A stretch of DNA of 64,000 nucleotides from assembly GCA_021287065.1 (NCBI GenBank), contig JAJTBE010000201.1, positions 7,728 through 71,727 on the forward strand. The letters are read 5' to 3'. Position numbers and translations under genes: made by a program. Below are positions 16,147 through 53,625 of this stretch, piece by piece; the first letter of the stretch is position 1, and each line of letters starts with the position of its first letter. Origin of the DNA: Bacillota bacterium. Lineage in GTDB: Bacteria > Vulcanimicrobiota > JAJTBE01. The notes below the pieces were generated by a model. The model ran no database searches. It saw only the letters and a program-made list of their open reading frames with translations, and had not been told where the DNA came from.

Positions 16147-16689
16147 TTATTTTCCCCCTGCCTTCCTGATTAATTCCGCAATATCATTATTTCCTCTGGC
16201 AAGGGCTACTCTCAGGGGAGTGGCGCCATTTGCCATTTTCGCATTAACATCCGCGCCGTTTTCGATGAGAATAACCGCTACATCCTTATGACCCTTCAGA
16301 GCTGCTATATGCAGAGGCGTAGCTTTTCCCACCGTTCTTACGGCGTTGACATCGGCACCGCTTTTAAGAAGAAGCCTGGCAGCTTCAGGCTGGCCCTGGG
16401 AGGCTGCAACATGAAGGGGAGTGCCGCCGTCCTTATTTCTGATGTTTATATCCACTTTCAGGGAAATCAGGTATTTCATAACCTCGATTCTACCCCATCC
16501 CGCCGCAAGATGAAGAGGCGTTTTGCCATCCTCATTCTGTGTGGAAATCAATTCGGGATTTTTCGACAGAATTTCCTTAACTTTTGCCAAATCCCCACTT
16601 TTTGCAGCATCGTGAACCTCCCCGCAAAATGCAGGGGTCCAGATACAGACTGCAAGCAAAATTACTGCTGCTGAAAGAAAATATTTCAT
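16147..16689 (-). CDS. Secreted ankyrin-repeat protein
   Basis: Signal peptide MKYFLSAAVILLAVCIWTPAFC. About four ANK repeats (G-x-TPLH-x-AA-x-x-G). Start set at the ATG preceded by AAAGGAGGAAGGG. Confidence 0.85.
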   Translation of the reverse strand: MKYFLSAAVILLAVCIWTPAFCGEVHDAAKSGDLAKVKEILSKNPELISTQNEDGKTPLHLAAGWGRIEVMKYLISLKVDINIRNKDGGTPLHVAASQGQPEAARLLLKSGADVNAVRTVGKATPLHIAALKGHKDVAVILIENGADVNAKMANGATPLRVALARGNNDIAELIRKAGGK

Positions 16690-16910
16690 AACCCTTCCTC
16701 CTTTGTTTATATTCATGTTTTCGCTTTATCCCGAAAACTGCCTTCAGAAGTTTTTTTTGCAAATGTCAACTATTTATTTATACAGCCAATATGAATTTGT
16801 TTTGTAAAGTTCTGTGGAAATGGGAAATTTTGGCTATAATCTGTTTGAAGGGGTGAGAGAGATTGCTGCGTTTTGGTTGGTTTGTTGTTTGAATTTGCGG
16901 TGAAGGCGGA

Positions 16911-17230
16911 CCCAATGCCACTGAATCAGTAAAAACCACTCTAATCCCAATCCCCAATACTCCTGTTTTTCAAGTAAGGAGGTTCGGAGGGTAACCTCGC
17001 TTTTCCAAAAAAGCGTGGTTTCCTCTGACGGTCCCCAAATCCCCCGGTCGGTCCAAAATCCCCGCGGTCCCCGGTCGGTCCCTAATTCCAAAAGTTTTGG
17101 GAAGGCGGGTGCCTGCCCGCAGGGTGGGTGCGAGGAAACTTTTTTCAAAAAGTTTTCTCTGGGAGCAGGGCATGCGGTTGTAATCCTCGTGAGCGATTAA
17201 ATAAATCCATGCCTTAATTCATGGGTATTG
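16911..17230 (-). repeat. Family A MITE-like element, copy 1 (inverted orientation)
   Basis: Alignable end to end with 35404-35695, 53001-53294 and 53337-53622. Terminal inverted repeats are CAATACCCATGAAT / ATTCAGTGGCATTG when read on the minus strand. Confidence 0.8.
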
Positions 17231-17259
17231 CCATCGGAAATGAACAGACATGCCCACTG

Positions 17260-17350
17260 GCAACAAACTCAAACCACCTGCAAACTTTATAACCGCAATA
17301 AATCACCAACGACTGCCGAATCGCAGGCGTCTCGCCTGTCCCCCCCCGGG
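17260..17350. repeat. Diverged inverted partial copy of the family B unit
   Basis: GACTGCCGAATCGCAGGCGTCTCGCCTGTCCCCCCCCGGG is the reverse complement of the B-unit segment CCCGGGGGCAGGCGGGACGCCTGCGATCCGGCAGTC. Confidence 0.6.
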
Positions 17351-17508
17351 AAAACAATCCCGCATCCTCTCTACTATCTCCGGAATGGAATAACTACTCT
17401 AACTGCAGGGTCGGCGCCAATGATCCGACCCGATGTCAAACCTGTCTCCAATACAAATCGAATTATAGTAATGTGCAGCTATCAGCATGATTTTCAAGTA
17501 TGCGAAAT

Positions 17509-18290
17509 ATTTACGGTTTTAGTTTGCATCGTGGGCGGACCTGCGGGTCCGCGTCGAGGTTGCAAACCCCTCCTACGATCGCTGGCCATGCTTGTGGTTG
17601 TGGGGTTTGCTGGCGGTTAGCGGTGGGTTTTGGGACCCGGGGGCAGGCGGGACGCCTGCGATCCGGCATTTGTCGGCGTTTTTTTGCCGCACTTTCGGGG
17701 GAATTAGGGTTTGAGTCTGCGTAGGGGGCGGACCTGCGGGTCCGCGTCGGGGTTGCAAACCCCTCCTACGATCGCTGGCGAAGCTTGTGGTTATTAGGTT
17801 TGCTGGCGGTTGGTGTTGGCTTTTGAGACCCGGGGGCAGGCGGGACGCCTGCGATCCGGCATTTGTTGGCGTTTTTTTGCCGCACTTTCGGGGGAATTAG
17901 GGTTTGAGTCTGTGTCGTGGGCGGACCTGCGGGTCCGCGTCGGGGTTGCAAACCCCTCCTACGATCGCTGGCCATGCTTGTGGTTATGGGGTTTGCTGGC
18001 GGTTGGCGGTGGTTTTTGGGACCCGGGGGGGCAGGCGGGACGCCTGCGATCCGGCATTTGTTGGCGTTTTGTTGGCGCTCTTTTGGGGGATTTGTGGTTT
18101 TAGTTTGCAGCGTGGGCGGACCTGCGGGTCCGCGTCGGGGTTGCAAACCCCTCCTACGATCGCTGGCGGAGCTTGTGGTTATGGGGTTTACTGGCGGTTG
18201 TCCAGAGGTTTTGGGACCCGGGGGCAGGCGGGATGCCTGCGATCCGGCAGTCACTGGCGGAGCTTGTGGTTGTGTGGTTTGCTGGCTGTT
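17509..18290. repeat. Family B tandem array: four about 193-195-bp units, each with three GC-rich hairpins (REP-like)
   Basis: GGGCGGACCTGCGGGTCCGC recurs at 17533, 17726, 17919 and 18114. Each unit carries GT[AG]G + GCGGACC-TGCG-GGTCCGC, GGGGTT-GCA-AACCCC and GCAGGCG-GGA-CGCCTGC. Confidence 0.85.
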
Positions 18291-18447
18291 AAGCAATCCT
18301 ATCGGTATAGCTTATATTTCGGCAAAATGGTATAACATCGGATCTCATGGCTGATTTAACGGGATTACTATATTATCATATTTTAACAAAAGGAATAATG
18401 ACTTGTTGTGGAATGAATAATCATGGTTTTTGAGGGGAGGAGAAAAT

Positions 18448-21400
18448 TTGTCGGAGCATCCGGAATCAAAGCCTGTTGAACAGGCTGAAACTGAGAATCG
18501 GACTGAATCAGCAGAGGGAAATACCTTTTGGGGTAAATTCACCAGCAAAGTCTGGTTCCCGATATTAACTTTTCTGTCAGGAATAATAATAAGGGCTTTT
18601 CTCGTTTTATCCACCGACACCGGAGGGGTTGAGGTGTTCAGAGCGCAGGCGGCGCAGGCTTTTCTTGCCAATGCCGCCAACATGAAATTTGCCCATATTT
18701 TTGCATATTACAAAATAAATTCCTGCACACCCCTGTTGTCATACATTCTGTATGGTGTATTCGGAGCTTTTAAGTTTTTTCAGGAAAAGGCCGCCTTGCT
18801 TGGTTTTACAAGAGAAAAGCTTGAAGCCCTCGGAATCAGACAGGATATCTGGGACAGAATTCTCGGACTGTTTCTGAAATCTCCGATGATACTTGCAGAT
18901 CTTGGTATTGCAATTCTTATTTATATCATTATAAGAAGAAAATTTGACAGCATAAAGCTGGGAACTATTGCCGGCGCACTTTATCTCCTTATGCCGCCTG
19001 TGGTTTTCGCATTTTTCCGCAGACCTGAAACCCTCTCAATAACTCTGTTTCTCATTCTGCTTGCTGTGGTTATAATCAACGGCAAAAACAGATTTGCTGC
19101 CATTTTTGCAGCTATACCGCTTTCACTTGCGCTTCTCAATGAGATTAACCCTCTCATTATGGCAGGAATTATGGGATGGCTGATTTTATCGCAGATAAAA
19201 CGGAAAAGGTTTGTAACCGCCGCATTATCACCGCTTGCAGTTGTGCTTCTGTTTATCCTTATTTCAGCTCCGTTCCACAGCTTCACATTCCAGCCCCCGG
19301 ATGCTCCTCCGGACGACGGGAGAATCCCTCTTGACCAGCTTCATCAGATGAATCTGAAAAGCTCGTCAAACTTAACTATGACCGATGTGATTTACTGGGA
19401 TACATTTATTGAAAGTCTGGCTAAGCCTGAGACTCCGCAGATGATAAAACTGCAGAGCTATCTATCCCCGGGAACGGTGCAGTTTCTGCTATCACATAAG
19501 CCTGAGACACCGCCGGATGTGGCAGGGGTAAAGCAGTTTGTAGCTGAAATTAATCAGGTTCTCTCCCGGAAAGATTTCTACTCACCGGATTTATTTGATG
19601 AATCGTATTTTACCGACGAAGGCAAAGAGCTTCTTGCAAAAGGTATAAACAACCTCAGCGACAATCAGACAAGAAGGCTCAACAAGATAATTCTTGAATC
19701 CCTTTATCCCATGGTGCTGGTGAAAAGCCCGATTCCTCTGCCTGAGGACCAGATGAAGCTTTTCCCGTTCAGGCTGATTTACGAAAATACCTACAGATAT
19801 ACCCAATACAACTCAAACAGTGCCTTTAATATATGGAGCCTTTATTCGATAAAGCTTCCCGACTCCGCCCCTTCGTTTATCGGAGTGCCAAAATTCACAG
19901 CAGGGCTTATTCTGACCATTGCAGTGATGATTCTCCTGTTTGCTCTTTATATAAGAAGCAGAAAAACAGATATAGAGGCAGACTGTCTGTATTTTACACT
20001 GTTTTTCCTTACTCAGTTTATGCTTCCCACAAGATGCTTCGATTATGCCGTAATATCTATTTTTCCCTTTCTTGCGGTTCTGTTCTTCTCTGATTTCAGA
20101 GCAAGACTCCTCACATACGGATTTGGCGTTACCGCATGGGTCAATCTCTATCTGATTGAGCGGTTTGATGTTTCTCCGGAGGCATTCACAACTGTTCCCG
20201 CATTTATGAAACTGTTTTCGCTGATTAACATCCTGATGTTTGCCGGAGCTGTAGCCTGGTATTGGGTGAGATCAGGTGAGGAAAGTCCCGAAGAGGCGGG
20301 ATTGAAGCTGAAAAACCGGATTTTAACATTTTCACCAGCGCTGCGTAAAGTATCGGACTGGTTTCTGGTTCCTGCGAACCAGCAGTTTGTTATGGTATTA
20401 TTCGTCGCTTTCATAATCAGGATATGGAGGCTTGGAATCCCTGACACCACAAATTTCGATGAAAAATACTACACACCCATGGCGAGGGATTATTTCTATG
20501 GAATTAAGGATCCCGTCGAGGGTGCTTCCCATCCTCCCCTTTCCACATACATTATCGGTATCGGAATAGGGCTTCTGGGCGATAATGTAATCGGCTGGCG
20601 TATAATGAGCCTGATTTTCAGCATGCTTATGCTGACTGTATTATACTACTTCGCAAGGGAAGTATTTAAAAACCACGCTCCCGCCCTTATTGCCACAAGC
20701 CTTCTGGCTTTCGACTTTATGCATTTTGTGCATTCCCGTCTGGGTATGCTTGATATCTATTCGTCATTTTTCAACCTTTGCAGTTATTATCTGCTCTACC
20801 TGTTTATTACCAAAGGCAATAACCGCTATCTATGGGGACTGGGGGCAACCCTTGCCCTCGGTGCAGCTTGTAAATGGACGGCGGCGTTTACTATCCTCGG
20901 TGTTGGCACAATTCTTGTTGCGGGAAAAATCGCAGGCATGATATTCAAAGAAAAATTCACATACGGGGAAAACCTCCGAAAGGTGAACATTCTGAAACTC
21001 ATCGCCATTCTTGCGATAATTCCATTTGTTGTTCAGATACTGGTATTTCTGCCTCTCCTTGGAAATGTAAAAGCTGTGGGCAACAAGCTTCAGGAGCTTA
21101 CAAAATACCACGAAAACCTTGTGGGAGAAGATGAAATTGCATCTCCCTGGTGGTCATGGATATTTGTCATCAATCCAATCACATACACAAGAGTAACAGT
21201 AGGCGCTCCGAAATCCCAGCAGGTTTCAGATTTTGAGATCATAAGACTCAAAGAACAGAATGCAGTGGAGCAGACTGCGGTAACAGGAATGGGAAATCCC
21301 ATTGCATGGTGGTTCTCAATACCTGCAATCATCGCCTGTTTCATCATTGCATACCGAAGAAAGGATCTTGGCGGTGTTTATGCGGCAATGCCCTTTATTT

Positions 21401-21660
21401 TCCAGTATTTTCCGTGGGCGTTTATCAAGCGTATAACATATATTTTCTATATGATTGATATTGTGCCTTATATGTGCCTTGCTTTAGCTTATGTTCTTTA
21501 CGCTATTTATGCAAAGGGCAAAATCGGCAGAGTTCTGGTTTATTCATATATGGGACTTATTGTCGCCGCTTTTGTGTTTTTCTATCCGGTTCTCACGGCA
21601 CTGTCGGTAAGTCCGGCAATTTACAGGCTTTATAAGATTTTCAACTTCTGGAAATTCTGA
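18448..21660 (+). CDS. Polytopic membrane glycosyltransferase: N-terminal GT-C-like module fused to a GT39/PMT_2 module
   Basis: More than 20 predicted TM segments. The C-terminal half has the PMT-type loop motif NFDEKYYTPMARDYF and a PMT_4TMC-like end. The N-terminal half (about 640 aa) is a second polytopic module with a soluble loop of about 180 aa. TTG 18448 follows GAGGGGAGGAG. Confidence 0.75.
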   Translation: MSEHPESKPVEQAETENRTESAEGNTFWGKFTSKVWFPILTFLSGIIIRAFLVLSTDTGGVEVFRAQAAQAFLANAANMKFAHIFAYYKINSCTPLLSYILYGVFGAFKFFQEKAALLGFTREKLEALGIRQDIWDRILGLFLKSPMILADLGIAILIYIIIRRKFDSIKLGTIAGALYLLMPPVVFAFFRRPETLSITLFLILLAVVIINGKNRFAAIFAAIPLSLALLNEINPLIMAGIMGWLILSQIKRKRFVTAALSPLAVVLLFILISAPFHSFTFQPPDAPPDDGRIPLDQLHQMNLKSSSNLTMTDVIYWDTFIESLAKPETPQMIKLQSYLSPGTVQFLLSHKPETPPDVAGVKQFVAEINQVLSRKDFYSPDLFDESYFTDEGKELLAKGINNLSDNQTRRLNKIILESLYPMVLVKSPIPLPEDQMKLFPFRLIYENTYRYTQYNSNSAFNIWSLYSIKLPDSAPSFIGVPKFTAGLILTIAVMILLFALYIRSRKTDIEADCLYFTLFFLTQFMLPTRCFDYAVISIFPFLAVLFFSDFRARLLTYGFGVTAWVNLYLIERFDVSPEAFTTVPAFMKLFSLINILMFAGAVAWYWVRSGEESPEEAGLKLKNRILTFSPALRKVSDWFLVPANQQFVMVLFVAFIIRIWRLGIPDTTNFDEKYYTPMARDYFYGIKDPVEGASHPPLSTYIIGIGIGLLGDNVIGWRIMSLIFSMLMLTVLYYFAREVFKNHAPALIATSLLAFDFMHFVHSRLGMLDIYSSFFNLCSYYLLYLFITKGNNRYLWGLGATLALGAACKWTAAFTILGVGTILVAGKIAGMIFKEKFTYGENLRKVNILKLIAILAIIPFVVQILVFLPLLGNVKAVGNKLQELTKYHENLVGEDEIASPWWSWIFVINPITYTRVTVGAPKSQQVSDFEIIRLKEQNAVEQTAVTGMGNPIAWWFSIPAIIACFIIAYRRKDLGGVYAAMPFIFQYFPWAFIKRITYIFYMIDIVPYMCLALAYVLYAIYAKGKIGRVLVYSYMGLIVAAFVFFYPVLTALSVSPAIYRLYKIFNFWKF

Positions 21661-28930: not shown

Positions 28931-30997
28931 CTATTTTTTCAAAGCATCCAGAATTTCCTGATTTGAATTTGCAGTAGCCATGTCTTTTGATGATGTGCCC
29001 TGATCTTCTTTCAGATCAGGATTTGCGCCTGCATTCATCAGGCTTTCAACCATTCTGACATTACCTGCGGTAACTGCATAATGCAGAGCAGTCCAGCCGT
29101 TCATTCCCTTTACATTGGGATCTGCATTTTTTGAAATGAGATAATCCACCATATCGGGTCTTTCACTGTTTACAGCAGTGATAAGCGGTGTTATGCCATC
29201 TTTTTCCGAGTTTATATCAAAACCTTTGGCAAGAATTTTATCCACCAGTTGTTTATCTTCACCGACAACGGCGCTGATCATGGCATCATGAATATCTATC
29301 TCCCCACTGTCTACGCCTGCATCAATAGCTTTCAAATCTTCTTTGGAAATCTGAAAATCACTGGTGGAAGTAGCTGCAGGAAGAGGGCTTACCTTTATGC
29401 TGGCTTTCTTTTTATCCGTATCAATATTGATTTTCACATTATTGTTGTCCACAGGATGAGTTACGGCATACCAGACGACGAGTGCAATGAAAGTGCCGCC
29501 AACAAGGGCGAGAATTCCCAATACAATCAGAACGGTTTTCCACGCACATGAAGGCTTCTTTCCTGCCTGTGGCTGAACGGGAAGCTTCTGAGCCGGTACT
29601 GCGCCGATGTTGCGATCATAAGCGGGTGAAACAGGAGGAGGCTGCATAATCTGCCCCTGTCCCTGAATTCCGCCTGTGCCTCCGGGTCCTGCCGGAGGGG
29701 GAGCCTGCATACCGCCGGTTCCACCGGGACGTGCCTGTGGAGGTGTCTGCATGCCGCCGGTTCCGCCGGGACGTGCCTGGGGAGGCGTCTGCATACCACC
29801 GGTTCCACCGGGACGAGCCTGCTGTTGGGGCTGAAAACCGCCTGAACCTGCAGGGGGAGCCATTCTTCCCTGCTGGGGAGGGCGCTGTAATCCTCCGCTG
29901 CCTGCGGGAGGAACAACAACAGGGGGAACCTGCTGCTGAGGAGGTAAGGGAATGCCCGTATCTGTCATTTTATTTGTGGGAGCACCGGGTAACGAACCGG
30001 ACCCGGATGCCACGGAAATATCTGCTCCGGGATGCGGAGGCATAACATTGGTTTCCCTGATCTGGCTCAGTGCATAGAGAACTTCATCCACTGTCTGGGG
30101 TCTGTCTTCCTTACGCTGTTTAACCATCCGGAGAATAAGATTATTCAGGGTTTCCGGCACATCATCCCTGTATCCCGAAAGAGGAGGAAAATCGAAAGGA
30201 TCCCTTTCCGCAGGAGGTTCACCTGAAAGCAGGTGGTGGAAAGTTGCTCCAACGCTGAAAATATCAGAAGCCTGCACAGCTCTGCCGGAAAACTGCTCCG
30301 GCGAGGCATATCCGAATGTGCCAACAGAAGTATGGGAGGCTGACTCCGGGCTTATGGTTCTTGCTATGCCGAAATCGAGCATAAAGATTTCGCCTTCGGG
30401 GGTGAGCATCAGATTGGAAGGCTTTATATCACGATGAATGATCGGCGGATTCTGGTTGTGCAGATATCTGAGTATCTCCAGAACCTTCCTCATCCATTTG
30501 AGACCCACTTTAACATCTATACGGTGAGACGGGTGGTCGCTGATAAGTTTGGACAGGTCCTTGCCTTTTACATACTCCATAACAAGATACATATTTGCTT
30601 CCTCAACAAAATAATCGAGGACTTTCGGCAAGCCTGAATGTTTGAGGTTAAAAAGCATCTGCGCTTCCGTAACAAAGCGCTTTTCGAGATACTCCCTGTT
30701 TTCGCCCCTTGCAAGGAAATGGTGCATTTCCTTGATGACTACGGTTCCCTTCATCTTGGTATCCTGAGCAAGAAGGACCCGCCCCATGCCCCCGGCGCCA
30801 AGTTCCCTTTCGATATGATAACGGTCCTGATTAAGAGTAGATTTCTCTTCAAGGGGTTTTGGCATTGGCGGCGCAGAACGGCTTCCCCCCGGAGGCTTCT
30901 GAAGCACAGGGGAGGTTCCGTCAATCATTCTGGCTCCGCAGAATATGCAGAAAGTGGCAGTATCGTGGTTTTCATTTCCACAGGAAGGACAAAACAT
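28931..30997 (-). CDS. Ser/Thr protein kinase: N-terminal zinc ribbon, kinase domain, Pro/Gly repeats, TM helix, C-terminal ankyrin repeats
   Basis: CPSCG-x12-CIFCG, VVIKEM lysine region, HRDIKPSNLM, DFGIA, SPEQ. TM helix VLIVLGILALVGGTFIALVVWYAV. ANK repeats (GITPLITAV, GWTALHYAV). Confidence 0.9.
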   Translation of the reverse strand: MFCPSCGNENHDTATFCIFCGARMIDGTSPVLQKPPGGSRSAPPMPKPLEEKSTLNQDRYHIERELGAGGMGRVLLAQDTKMKGTVVIKEMHHFLARGENREYLEKRFVTEAQMLFNLKHSGLPKVLDYFVEEANMYLVMEYVKGKDLSKLISDHPSHRIDVKVGLKWMRKVLEILRYLHNQNPPIIHRDIKPSNLMLTPEGEIFMLDFGIARTISPESASHTSVGTFGYASPEQFSGRAVQASDIFSVGATFHHLLSGEPPAERDPFDFPPLSGYRDDVPETLNNLILRMVKQRKEDRPQTVDEVLYALSQIRETNVMPPHPGADISVASGSGSLPGAPTNKMTDTGIPLPPQQQVPPVVVPPAGSGGLQRPPQQGRMAPPAGSGGFQPQQQARPGGTGGMQTPPQARPGGTGGMQTPPQARPGGTGGMQAPPPAGPGGTGGIQGQGQIMQPPPVSPAYDRNIGAVPAQKLPVQPQAGKKPSCAWKTVLIVLGILALVGGTFIALVVWYAVTHPVDNNNVKINIDTDKKKASIKVSPLPAATSTSDFQISKEDLKAIDAGVDSGEIDIHDAMISAVVGEDKQLVDKILAKGFDINSEKDGITPLITAVNSERPDMVDYLISKNADPNVKGMNGWTALHYAVTAGNVRMVESLMNAGANPDLKEDQGTSSKDMATANSNQEILDALKK
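29705..29830 (-). repeat. In-frame 42-bp tandem repeat (3 copies) encoding ARPGGTGGMQTPPQ within the kinase linker
   Basis: CTGCATNCCNCCGGTTCCNCCGGGACG... repeats at 29705, 29747 and 29789. Confidence 0.8.
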
Positions 30998-35403: not shown

Positions 35404-35695
35404 CGGAATGCCACTGAATAAAGGCATGGATTTATCTAATCGCTCACGAGACTTGTGTCCGTTTGCCCAGCTCCCAGAGAAAACTTTTTGAAAAAAGTTT
35501 CCTCCGGACCTCCATCCCAAAACTTTTGAATTGGGGGACCGACCGGAGGGGTTAGGACCGACGGGGATTTGGGAACCGTCAGAGGGAACCACGCTTTTTT
35601 GGAAATGCGAGGTTGCCCTCCGAACCTCCCTCTTTGAAAAACAAGAGTATGGGGTTGGGGATTTGAGTGAATTTTTCTAATGCAATGGTATTAGG
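35404..35695 (+). repeat. Family A MITE-like element, copy 2
   Basis: 5' end AATGCCACTGAAT. The 3' end AATGCAATGGTATT is degenerate. Fills the gap between convergent bshC and the beta-propeller gene. Confidence 0.75.
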
Positions 35696-40629: not shown

Positions 40630-40759
40630 TAAAATATCAAATTTTCAATAACTGAATAATTTTATATCGAAAGCATCATGCAAATGAGGTTGGGGCAGAC
40701 GCTTATTCGGGTTGTTTGTATTTGCAAAAAAATATCAGATAAAAAAGGCAGGGAAAATT

Positions 40760-41476
40760 ATGCAAACGGAGCCGATTAAAGATTATATTCCGCCGGAATA
40801 CCCCGAAGCAGATAAAATTAAAGATAAAAAGAAATTTTTAGCCGGATGTATTCCTGACAAATGGAAAAAAGTAATAATTACGGCAGGTGCAGTTGTTTTG
40901 ATTTCCGGAAGTTTAATGCTGCACGATTCGCAGAAAAGCTGCTGCATTAAAGAATCAGCGGGAAGCTGTTTTGTGGAAGCAACACAACAGAATGCAGCAC
41001 ATATATGGGAATCTTTATCGGGAAAGTTTGATTCGATATTCAATAAAAACAAATATGCCGGTATCCTCGGAGACATTGTTCTGCCTGATCAGAAACGGGA
41101 AACTGATGTAAGAAGAGCGGTCGAAGAGGAATTTCTGAAACAGGGCATAGTTTTTGATGACAGCAGCTATAATGCCGGAGATGATAACACACCTCTATAC
41201 CTTGATTCGTTTTCTTCAAAAGACAGAATCGGATATAAATTCATTGATACTGAGAATCGAAGCGAAATCGCAAAATGGGGCAATATCAAGGAAGGCACGT
41301 TGATAACCCTGAAAGATAATGCGGATTTTCTTGAGAAAGAACTACTGAAGCAAAAACAGATAAAATGCGCAGTTATTATTGTTCCTGTAAAACTGAAACT
41401 GCCTGTGTTGTTTTTGCCAAATGCGGATAAAGAGTTGGAAAGTTTTAAGAAAACAATCAGGGTTCCGGAGAAATGA
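40760..41476 (+). CDS. Hypothetical membrane-anchored protein
   Basis: Single TM helix (VIITAGAVVLISGSLML) after a charged N-terminus. Start set at the internal ATG 40760 of ORF 40712-41476. Confidence 0.5.
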   Translation: MQTEPIKDYIPPEYPEADKIKDKKKFLAGCIPDKWKKVIITAGAVVLISGSLMLHDSQKSCCIKESAGSCFVEATQQNAAHIWESLSGKFDSIFNKNKYAGILGDIVLPDQKRETDVRRAVEEEFLKQGIVFDDSSYNAGDDNTPLYLDSFSSKDRIGYKFIDTENRSEIAKWGNIKEGTLITLKDNADFLEKELLKQKQIKCAVIIVPVKLKLPVLFLPNADKELESFKKTIRVPEK

Positions 41477-41484
41477 ATGGGTAT

Positions 41485-41632
41485 CCGGGGGGCAGGCGGG
41501 ATGCCTGCGATCCGGCAGGTGTTGGCGAAGCTTGTGGTTATGAGGGGGGCTGACGGTTGGCGGTTGGTTTTGGGACCTGGGGGCAGGCGGGACGCCTGTG
41601 ATCCGGCAGGTGTTGGTCAAGCTTGTGGTTAT
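41485..41632. repeat. Family B-related partial repeats (2 x about 91 bp; H3 hairpin plus CTTGTGGTTAT arm only)
   Basis: GGGCAGGCGGGA[TC]GCCTG[CT]GATCCGGCAGGTGTTGG..AAGCTTGTGGTTAT occurs at 41490 and 41581 and matches the second half of the 17509-18290 units. Confidence 0.75.
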
Positions 41633-41879
41633 CCGATGTAGCTTTACCCACGATTATATAGTCTTTCCAATTATAGTCTTTCCAATTAACCAACCACAAA
41701 AACACTCTGTCAGGAAATTTGCCTGGCACCGGATTTTATGACCGATTTAATGGGATTACTATAATCGGGCTGGTTTCAGGTTTAATAAAAAACACCAAAC
41801 CAACTATGAAAAGGTCTGGTGTTGCGGGGAATTGTTATTTCACATTCCTTTTACCTGAAATATAGATTTAAAAAGAATG

Positions 41880-52988: not shown

Positions 52989-53000
52989 GGGGGGTTGGGG

Positions 53001-53294
53001 CAATGCCCATGAATTAAGGCATGGATTTATCTGATCGCTCACGAGAATTGTAACCGTTTGCCCAGCTCCCAGAGAAAACTTTTTGGAAAAAGTTTCCTCC
53101 GGACCTCCTTCCCAAAACTTTGGAATCGGGGGACCGACCGGGGACCGTGGGATCTGGACCGACCAGGGGTTGGGGACCGTCAGAGGGAACCACGCTTTTT
53201 TGGAAAAGCGAGATTACCCTCCGAACCTCCCTCCTTGAAAAACAGGAGTATTCGGGCGGGAATTGGAGTAAATTTTACTAATTCAACGGCATTG
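53001..53294 (+). repeat. Family A MITE-like element, copy 3
   Basis: TIRs CAATGCCCATGAAT / ATTCAACGGCATTG. Begins 12 nt after the permease stop. Confidence 0.8.
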
Positions 53295-53336
53295 GGTAAG
53301 AGCGACCGGGGGATTTTGACCGACGGGGGTTGGGGG

Positions 53337-53622
53337 CAATGCCCATGAATTAAGGCATGGATTTATATAATCGCACACGAGAATTGTAACCGTTTGCCCA
53401 GCTCCCAGAGAAAACTTTTTGAAAAAAGTTTCCTCCGGACCTCCATCCCAAAACTTTTGAATCGGGGGACCGACCAGGGGGGGTGGACCCACTGGGGTTT
53501 GGGGACCATCAGAGGAGACCACGCTTTTCTGGACAAGCGGGTTGCCCTCCGAACCTCCCTCCCTGAAAAACAGGAGTATGAGGTTGGAGATTTGAGTAAA
53601 TTTTACTGATTCAGCGGCATTG
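53337..53622 (+). repeat. Family A MITE-like element, copy 4 (tandem with copy 3)
   Basis: TIRs CAATGCCCATGAAT / ATTCAGCGGCATTG. Ends 3 nt before the sigma factor stop codon. Confidence 0.8.
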
Positions 53623-53625
53623 GGG

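What the first reader, a model, noticed from the sequence alone, without database searches (positions are those of the whole stretch)
17509..18290. Family B: tandem array of four about 193-195-bp units, each carrying three GC-rich hairpins, one with a REP-like GT[AG]G prefix
GGGCGGACCTGCGGGTCCGC recurs at 17533, 17726, 17919 and 18114 (periods 193, 193, 195). Each unit contains H1 GT[GA]G-(G)GCGGACC-TGCG-GGTCCGC, H2 GGGGTT-GCA-AACCCC and H3 GCAGGCG-GGA-CGCCTGC. A G/T-rich arm follows (GCTTGTGGTTATGGGGTTTGCTGGCGGTTGG). A conserved GT[AG]G tetranucleotide next to a palindrome is the hallmark of REP elements mobilised by RAYT (IS200/IS605-like Y1) transposases. However, a regular tandem unit of about 194 bp with three different hairpins is not the usual REP/BIME layout. 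All six frames are open here only because of GC-rich composition.
Basis: partly seen in the sequence, partly recalled or inferred. Interest (0 to 1): 0.65.

Follow-up and report, generated by a model that had tools for sequence, protein, structure and literature searches.

The report
REP-like hairpin repeat cluster, tandemly amplified
This stretch is a real but fairly ordinary piece of non-coding "selfish" DNA: small hairpin-forming repeats of the REP type, scattered in very many copies through the source community, have been copied four times head to tail between two genes of an uncultured wastewater bacterium.

Summary
Window 17509-18295 is a tandem array of 3.8-4 units of 193-195 bp at 87-89% identity, each with three GC-rich hairpins.

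Each unit is two related sub-units. Each sub-unit is a hairpin module ending in GATC plus a roughly 55-nt G/T-rich arm.

It is out of register in unit 2 and variable across the family. The solid REP signature is on the other strand at H2: GTAG-GA-GGGGTT-TGC-AACCCC-GAC. This is the format of RAYT-associated GTAG-1 REPs of Pseudomonas.

H1 and H2 form a heads-out inverted pair. The modules are dispersed and mosaic. There are two further sites in the window. In the source metagenome the summed depth is 39,000-48,000x over the hairpin cores, against 22x on the flanks.

Published surveys already describe REP dimers reiterated in tandem together with adjoining DNA, so the layout is not exotic.

No RAYT gene lies in the 64-kb window.

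The H3 hairpin plus GATCC recurs exactly in a Gammaproteobacteria MAG and in many other metagenome contigs.

Verdict: a new member of a known kind, of modest interest.

The parts
17509..17701 (+). Unit 1: leader, H1+H2 module, arm b, H3 module, arm d. H2 carries one mismatch (A17557).
   Evidence: An exact Logan unitig 17527-17586 at 38.7x carries the unit-1-specific A17557.
17702..17894 (+). Unit 2, the reference unit. Here GTAG lies 3 nt upstream of the register used in the other units. The outer GTAGG/CCTAC stem closes H1+H2.
17895..18089 (+). Unit 3 (195 bp). It has two extra G before H3 and a diverged arm d'.
   Evidence: Exact unitigs 17990-18052 at 20-28x, the single-copy depth of this genome, support its specific G-run.
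18090..18295 (+). Unit 4: H1+H2, arm b, H3 with a G-T pair, then a truncated arm b' that ends the array.
   Evidence: The Logan contig of the same strain (L003) starts inside it at 18228.
17535..17552 (+). H1 hairpin GCGGACC-TGCG-GGTCCGC. It repeats at +193, +386 and +581 (17728, 17921, 18116). It is preceded by GTGG in units 1, 3 and 4.
   Evidence: The tag is variable in the family.
17556..17580 (-). H2 REP-type element. On the minus strand it reads GATC-GTAG-GA-GGGGTT-TGC-AACCCC. It repeats in all four units (GTAGGAGG found ending at 17576, 17769, 17962 and 18157).
   Evidence: Depth peaks at 47,962x against a 22x flank, and no variant at 10% or more occurs in TCCTACGATC. The format matches Pseudomonas REPs.
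17643..17668 (+). H3 module GCAGGCG-GGA-CGCCTGC-GATCC-GGCA. Exact copies also lie at 17836, 18031, 18224, 41492 and 41583.
   Evidence: (7 matches, 0 expected). Depth peaks at 39,218x. The 23-mer is shared with other taxa.
17577..17631 (+). Arm b, the G/T-rich linker GCTGGCGAAGCTTGTGGTTATGGGGTTTGCTGGCGGTTGG...TTTTGGGA. It repeats in each unit and is homologous to arm d (17664-17722 and equivalents).
   Evidence: nhmmer E 1e-6 to 3e-11. Depth is 2,500-13,000x.
17264..17350 (-). Inverted, diverged copy of the H3 module plus arm. It faces the array from about 160 bp upstream.
   Evidence: (3 mismatches), and (nhmmer: H3 module E 1.3e-10, arm E 9e-4).
41485..41650 (+). Second family-B locus: H3-arm-H3-partial arm, period 91. 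It starts 9 nt after the stop codon of ORF 40712-41476 and lies between convergent genes.

Best explanation
The array is a BIME-like cluster of REP-type elements. It is non-coding, hairpin-forming, multi-copy DNA that has been locally amplified.

Shown:
- Each 193-bp unit is two homologous sub-units of the form [hairpin module - GATC - xTGGCG - G/T-rich arm].
- Sub-unit 1 carries two different small palindromes, H1 and H2, 3 nt apart in inverted orientation. Their GTRG/GTAG tags point outward. In the nomenclature of Di Nocera et al. this is an HH heterodimer.
- Sub-unit 2 carries the single palindrome H3.
- H2 has the exact build of RAYT-associated GTAG-1 REPs.
- The hairpin cores are far more repeated than the arms and occur in other combinations elsewhere, so the family is modular and mosaic.

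Inferred:
- The modules spread as single-stranded hairpins handled in trans by a Y1 (HUH) REP-associated transposase, or a similar hairpin-specific enzyme, encoded elsewhere.
- The GATC at the foot of every hairpin module, where other copies switch to different arms, may mark the joining point.
- The four-unit array itself then arose by unequal recombination or replication slippage between neighbouring modules. This is how REP dimers are described as being reiterated in tandem together with adjoining DNA.
- At this site, a 1.76-kb divergent gap also holding a family-A MITE, the array is most likely neutral cargo. At most it acts as a structural or insulating element, or a transcript-end element.
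For: The array and its hairpins are real.

Sub-unit homology and anatomy rest on alignment A3 and on nhmmer.

GTAG-GA-stem-loop-stem-GAC on the minus strand is present in all four units. It is invariant at the 10% level across the family. It has the same format as Pflu1, Pent and Xcam REPs in Table 1 of PMC2817692 and fits the GTAG-1/-2 description in PMC3733652.

The same papers cover other features seen here. Tags degenerate to GTRG, GYAG and GTGG. Heterodimers with 1-5 bp spacing exist. Clusters are made of dimers reiterated in tandem with flanking DNA.

Dispersal: there are three sites in the window. Words are shared with two other windows of the same genome. In run X1, summed depth is 47,962x at H2 and 39,218x at H3 against 22x on the flanks, spread over 404 unitigs. 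Long contigs of 18-21x end in the H1/H2 module. Many joints show other module orders.

The stretch is non-coding and not a known RNA: Pfam finds nothing and Rfam finds nothing.

The H3 stem is kept through compensatory changes in other taxa, GCCGGCG/CGCCGGC and CGGGCG/CGCCCG.
Against: No RAYT/Y1 gene was found in the window or in about 190 kb of related loci. The genome could not be searched.

H3 has no unpaired GTAG tag, because its GCAG is part of the stem. H1's tag is variable.

Hairpin orientation along the array is +,-,- per unit, not strictly alternating as in classical BIMEs.

The 55-nt arms are much longer than BIME linkers and are themselves multi-copy.

The array sits between divergent genes, whereas REPs favour co-directional and convergent gaps (PMC3733652).

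The metagenome depth sums all organisms, so the copy number in this genome is unknown. Window density suggests of the order of 10^2.
Confidence: 0.7

Rival explanations
1. A MITE-type composite. A non-autonomous DDE-transposon derivative would be bounded by long inverted H3+arm ends (17264-17350 inverted, 18207-18292 direct), and its interior would have undergone tandem duplication.
For: An inverted H3+arm copy faces the terminal H3+arm. In other taxa the H3 sequence forms the 27-nt inverted ends of elements of about 120 nt.
Against: No target-site duplication is present at the putative ends here or at the 120-nt elements elsewhere (sequence read directly). The inverted copy is only about 65% similar beyond the hairpin. 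The hairpin cores are repeated 4-20 times more than the arms and recombine with other arms exactly at GATC or GGCA. That pattern fits independent small modules better than one bounded element.
Confidence: 0.13
2. A tandem set of small RNA genes, or one structured RNA (for example a protein sponge displaying GGA and GCA triloops), transcribed from the G-rich strand.
For: The three in-array and locus-2 variants of H3 are C-to-T changes that keep G-U/G-T pairing on the + strand only. Arm b folds only on the + strand (z = -2.7 against -0.5). Each of units 1-3 has a T-run after H3. The metatranscriptome run X2 holds exact H1-H2 unitigs at depth up to 393, while flanking genes are at 0-6.
Against: The promoter scan found no promoter-like site per unit, and the terminator-like stems are weak and not above the number found in shuffles. 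Rfam finds no family. The modules are shuffled in other copies. The RNA:DNA depth ratio at the hairpin core (about 0.07) is not higher than at covered unique stretches (0.13-0.27). The excess over the arms can come from the unitig abundance threshold or from DNA carry-over. No RNA piece spans a unit.
Confidence: 0.1
3. An assembly artefact. The four units would be a mis-assembly of dispersed copies collapsed or chained at this locus.
For: The independent Logan assembly breaks inside the array. Several variable 30-nt bins have no exact unitig.
Against: Unit-specific variants of units 1 and 3 are present as exact unitigs at 20-39x, the single-copy depth of this genome. Both flanks are exact. The units differ from each other by 11-13%, which allows assembly.
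Confidence: 0.04

Closest known systems
GTAG-tagged REP elements, especially GTAG-1 REPs of Pseudomonas and Xanthomonas (Nunvar et al. 2010, PMC2817692; Di Nocera et al. 2013, PMC3733652)
   Same: H2 on the minus strand reads GTAG + GA + a 6-bp G/C-rich stem + a 3-nt loop + stem + GAC. Compare GTGGGAGGGGGCTTGCCCCCGAT (Pflu1) and GTAGGAGCGCGCTCGCGCGCGA (Xcam). Other shared features are extragenic location, multiple copies, pairing with a second, different palindrome with heads outward, and occurrence in tandemly reiterated clusters.
   Different: No cognate RAYT has been shown. H1's tag is unstable and H3 has no unpaired tag.
BIMEs of E. coli (Y and Z REPs with linker motifs; BIME-2 arrays; Ton-Hoang et al. 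2012, PMC3333891)
   Same: Both are mosaics of different palindromic units joined by conserved linker motifs and amplified to variable numbers in one intergenic site.
   Different: Here the compound unit is 193 bp, with 55-nt G/T-rich linkers. Orientations run +,-,- instead of strictly alternating. Three palindrome types are involved rather than two.
REPINs (REP doublets forming hairpins; R0 family of P. fluorescens SBW25, cited in PMC2817692)
   Same: Both have an inverted pair of REPs with tags outward. The 120-nt H3-bounded elements found in other metagenome contigs have exactly this build.
   Different: In the window the two partners, H1 and H2, are unrelated in sequence. Only a 5-6 bp outer stem (GTAGG/CCTAC) forms, not a long REPIN hairpin.
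Modular MITE-like repeats such as pneumococcal BOX, Neisseria Correia and Stenotrophomonas SMAG (own knowledge; SMAG equals GTAG families 6-9 in PMC3733652)
   Same: Both are modular, have internally variable numbers of sub-units, are rich in hairpins, and are non-coding.
   Different: No terminal inverted repeats with target-site duplication were found here.

Membership tests
REP (GTAG superfamily) | A short (20-40 bp) imperfect palindrome with an unpaired GT(A/G)G-type tag at one end. | tested here: met
   H2 on the minus strand reads GTAG-GA-GGGGTT-TGC-AACCCC-GAC in 4 of 4 units, with no variant at 10% or more family-wide. H1 meets the feature only partly, because its GTGG/GTAG tag is out of register and variable. 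H3 does not meet it, because its GCAG lies inside the stem.
REP (GTAG superfamily) | High copy number (more than 100 per genome), extragenic. | tested here: inconclusive
   All window copies are intergenic. Metagenome depth is 39,000-48,000x against 22x, but this sums over all organisms. The genome itself could not be searched.
REP (GTAG superfamily) | Organised as dimers and clusters. | tested here: met
   H1/H2 form a heads-out pair 3 nt apart. There are four tandem compound units, and a second locus has two H3 units.
REP (GTAG superfamily) / REPtron | A cognate RAYT (Y1 HUH transposase) gene flanked by the same REPs. | not testable with these tools
No RAYT was found in the 64-kb window or the fetched loci by Pfam, a motif screen and a rough tblastn probe.
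BIME | [quoted passage not shown] | tested here: not met
   Spacing is regular, but orientation per unit is H1(+), H2(-), H3(-, when read by its GATCGYAG leader), repeated directly.
BIME | Conserved linker motifs between the palindromic units. | tested here: met
   Arms b and d are homologous and recur at locus 2 and in the metagenome.
REPIN | Two near-identical REPs in inverted orientation that fold into one long hairpin. | tested here: not met
   H1 and H2 have unrelated stems, and only a 5-6 bp outer stem forms.
MITE (DDE-mobilised) | Terminal inverted repeats plus a target-site duplication. | tested here: not met
   An inverted H3+arm exists, but no direct duplication flanks 17264 and 18292, nor the 120-nt elements in other taxa.
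Known structured RNA (Rfam 15) | A match at or near a family's gathering score. | tested here: not met
   There were no gathering-level matches in the window. Only chance-level hits occur around the array, the best of them inside the array being 16 bits to a CRISPR repeat model.

The most novel reading that the evidence does not exclude
The H3 hairpin with its GATCC foot (GGCAGGCGGGACGCCTGCGATCC) is one horizontally spreading REP type. It is shared letter for letter by this Xenobia-type bacterium, a Gammaproteobacteria MAG and many other environmental contigs, where it forms REPIN-like doublets of about 120 nt. It would be serviced by a so far unidentified hairpin-specific enzyme that crosses phylum boundaries. 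In this host it has recombined at the GATC foot with a lineage-specific GTAG-1-type dimer and G/T arms to build direct-repeat arrays.
Probability: 0.2. Interest if true: 0.55.

Novelty: new member of a known kind. Interest (0 to 1): 0.3.

Why it matters
It extends REP/BIME-type hairpin repeats, best known from Proteobacteria, to an uncultured lineage, apparently with a heavy load of several mosaic repeat families.

It also explains why short-read assemblies of this organism break at such sites.

The one feature worth following is the exact sharing of the H3 hairpin across unrelated bacteria. This could be used to find the enzyme that recognises it and to test whether REP types move between phyla.

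For gene annotation, the practical message is that the ORFs across 17500-18350 are not genes.

Tried and rejected
- Known RNA families: Rfam with permissive E-values on 16500-19000, and at gathering level on the whole window, found nothing.
- Coding repeats: the three ORFs over the array have no Pfam match, and the 193-bp period breaks the reading frame.
- CRISPR: there are no spacers, and only a 16-bit chance hit to a CRISPR repeat model.
- Plasmid or phage origin: no blastn match for the unit in PLSDB or INPHARED, and no H2 or H3 pattern in IMG/VR.
- G-quadruplex array: the G3+N1-7 x4 motif is present in only 2 of 4 units, so it is not a conserved feature.
- Per-unit promoters and terminators: no promoter-like site was found, and the terminator-like stems are weak and at chance frequency.
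- Orthologous-locus comparison: the ankyrin protein and the 1070-aa form of the PMT protein are not on record. The only PMT relative (71% identity) lies on a 3.7-kb contig without upstream DNA. The Logan contig of the same strain ends inside unit 4.
The best tblastn E-value was 0.38. The second-best hit (L022, E 0.86), when read, looked like a sulfite/nitrite-reductase-type fragment.
- H2 23-mer in JGI metagenomes: 0 hits.
- Orientation bias of H3 relative to neighbouring genes in other taxa: crude ORF calls gave a mixed picture.
- Literature search for the hairpin sequences themselves: 0 papers.

Full report
**Observation**

The window holds a clean tandem array. Tandem Repeats Finder gives 17511-18249, period 193, 3.8 copies, 89% matches and score 1173. 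The repeat finder gives spacings of 193, 193 and 195. The 19-mer GGCGGACCTGCGGGTCCGC sits at 17534, 17727, 17920 and 18115, with none expected by chance.

Aligned, the four units (17509-17701, 17702-17894, 17895-18089, 18090-18295) have 87% mean column identity. The three hairpins lie in invariant blocks and most variation falls in between.

As single-stranded DNA, H1 (GCGGACC-TGCG-GGTCCGC) folds at -9.1 kcal/mol, H2 (GGGGTT-GCA-AACCCC) at -5.0 and H3 (GCAGGCG-GGA-CGCCTGC) at -10.4. H1 and H2 are enclosed by an outer GTAGG/CCTAC stem, giving -19.2 kcal/mol (z = -3.9).

The region is 60-62% G+C against about 45% around it, and is strongly G-skewed on the + strand. ORFs crossing it have no Pfam match, and a 193-bp period changes frame at every unit. 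The array is therefore non-coding.

Aligning what follows H3 with what follows H2 shows that the two tails are diverged copies of one G/T-rich arm (alignment A3; nhmmer). The 193-bp unit is therefore two sub-units of the same design: a hairpin module ending in GATC, then xTGGCG, then an arm of about 55 nt. Sub-unit 1 carries H1+H2 and sub-unit 2 carries H3.

On the minus strand the two hairpin modules share a leader:
- GCCAGC-GATC-GTAG-GAGGGGTTTGCAACCCC for H2;
- GCCG-GATC-GCAG-GCGTCCCGCCTGC for H3.

The array ends with H3 plus a truncated arm.

A second family-B locus at 41485-41650 is H3-arm-H3-partial arm with a 91-bp period. It begins 9 nt after a stop codon and lies between convergent genes. 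A diverged, inverted H3+arm lies at 17264-17350, facing the array. No further copies are in the 64 kb.

**The REP question**

It is GTGG at the stem in units 1, 3 and 4, but in unit 2 that position reads GGGG and a GTAG sits three bases upstream. In the metagenome the T is a C in about 44% of depth.

The robust tag is on the other strand at H2: GTAG-GA-GGGGTT-TGC-AACCCC-GAC. It is present in all four units, and no variant reaches 10% in TCCTACGATC among the hundreds of pieces laid on it.

This is the build of the REPs that flank RAYT genes in Pseudomonas and Xanthomonas. Examples are GTGGGAGGGGGCTTGCCCCCGAT (Pflu1), GTAGGAGCCAGCTTGCTGGCGAA (Pent2) and GTAGGAGCGCGCTCGCGCGCGA (Xcam) (PMC2817692).

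Di Nocera et al. describe GTAG-1/-2 REPs as having a dinucleotide between tag and stem and a 3-nt tail. They also note that tags degenerate to GTRG, GYAG or GTGG. They describe partners 1-5 bp apart with tags outward ('HH' dimers), often with two different palindromes. [quoted passage not shown]

On that basis the H1/H2 module is an HH heterodimer and the array is a reiterated cluster. H3 has no unpaired tag, because its GCAG is part of the stem.

**Dispersal**

The Logan assembly of run X1 (wastewater metagenome) carries the flanks exactly at 21-22x, but it breaks in the repeats.

Laid on unit 4 plus its flank, summed depth rises from 22x to 47,962x over the 3' half of H1 and H2, and to 39,218x over H3. 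The arms stand at 2,500-13,000x, and 404 unitigs are involved. Long contigs of 18-21x, the depth of this genome, end in the H1/H2 module.

Many joints connect modules in other orders. The H3-to-arm join seen at locus 2 is one of them. Loose ends show other arms starting right after GATC or GGCA.

An earlier index of this scan also finds family-B words in two other windows of the same genome.

The family is therefore dispersed, modular and very abundant in the community. Because contig depths sum all organisms, the copy number in this genome alone cannot be given. Window density suggests of the order of 10^2.

**Is the array an assembly artefact?**

Unit-specific variants are present as exact unitigs at single-copy depth. 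These are 17527-17586 at 38.7x with the unit-1 A17557, and 17990-18052 at 20-28x with the unit-3 G-run.

The number and order of units cannot be checked without long reads. X1 may also be the sample the window was assembled from.

**RNA**

The only RNA run (X2) contains exact H1-H2 unitigs (for example 17727-17769 at depth 393), and no piece spans a unit. Flanking genes are at 0-6.

The RNA:DNA ratio at the hairpin core (about 0.07) is not above that of the unique stretches that are covered (0.13-0.27). Low-depth unitig assembly favours conserved cores, and DNA carry-over is possible.

This neither supports nor excludes transcription. It gives no sign of abundant unit-length RNAs. Rfam has no match, and the promoter scan found no promoter-like site per unit.

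**RAYT**

In what could be read, nothing resembling a Y1/HUH transposase appeared. The searches were:
- Pfam on 29 window ORFs;
- a motif screen over all six frames of the window and the fetched loci;
- a rough tblastn with remembered RayT and IS200 sequences;
- a Pfam tally of 114 ORFs from related loci.

Absence from 64 kb says little, so the link stays untested.

**A cross-taxon hairpin**

The H3 26-mer occurs exactly in two intergenic sites of a Gammaproteobacteria MAG, after phoU-like and clpS-like genes. The 23-mer GGCAGGCGGGAYGCCTGYGATCC occurs in 31 JGI/ENA metagenome contigs. Four of those are one conserved coding-region match. The rest are intergenic hairpins.

In many of them H3 forms the 27-nt inverted ends of elements of about 120 nt: ACTGGGATCGCAGGCGTCCCGCCTGCC, then two small hairpins, then GGCAGGCGGGACGCCTGCG(A/C)TCCCAGT. 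These have no target-site duplication, which is a REPIN-like build.

Only the 23-27 nt core is shared with the window. Variants keep the stem through compensatory changes. The H2 23-mer has no hit in JGI metagenomes, so H1/H2 and the arms look lineage-specific.

Published work reports a patchy distribution of tnpA(REP) genes consistent with horizontal transfer (PMC6006769). That would fit a travelling H3 type, but I did not find its enzyme.

**Verdict**

The array is a BIME-like, tandemly reiterated cluster of REP-type hairpin modules belonging to a dispersed mosaic family. The mobilising enzyme is inferred, not shown. I rate this a new member of a known kind, with modest interest.

The rivals are less likely, in this order:
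- a bounded MITE with internal duplication (no target-site duplication; cores more repeated than arms);
- tandem sRNA genes (no promoters, shuffled modules, no RNA support);
- an assembly artefact (unit-specific unitigs at single-copy depth).

Noticed in passing
window 16911-17232 (-), 35404-35695, 52999-53294, 53335-53624: Family A, a repeat of about 300 bp with four copies in the window. One copy lies directly upstream of the array. Its summed depth in run X1 is about 23,000x against a 21x flank.
   Followed up: partly
window 18319-18372 and 41710-41763: A conserved box lies about 30-60 bp downstream of both family-B loci. Its core is CGGATyTyATGrCyGATTTAAyGGGATTACTATAwT, about 85% identical over 40 nt. 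It is single-copy at 90% or more in X1. It contains TATATT/TATAAT and could be a shared promoter or a further module. At the second locus no + strand gene follows.
   Followed up: partly
L001 3377-3402, L002 2929-2954, L004-L034: The H3 hairpin plus GATCC is shared exactly with a Gammaproteobacteria MAG and 27 intergenic sites on metagenome contigs. There it is often the inverted end of REPIN-like elements of about 120 nt without target-site duplication.
   Followed up: partly
window 17380-17500: The apparently unique spacer between family A and the array also has relatives in X1 at 85-95% identity (depth up to 367x against about 32x). The whole 1.76-kb gap may therefore be repeat-derived.
   Followed up: no
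window 41653-41688: A perfect 15-nt tandem duplication, TATAGTCTTTCCAAT x2, lies right after the second family-B locus.
   Followed up: no
window 29662-29842: A 42-bp (14-codon) tandem repeat of about 4 copies lies inside the minus-strand Ser/Thr kinase-ankyrin gene 28931-30997. It is probably a Pro/Gly-rich linker.
   Followed up: no
window 18430-21660: The gene downstream of the array encodes a 1,070-1,076-aa membrane protein whose PMT/PMT_2/PMT_4TMC domains occupy only the C-terminal 430 aa. Only one relative (71% identity) was found among 5.8 billion proteins.
   Followed up: no
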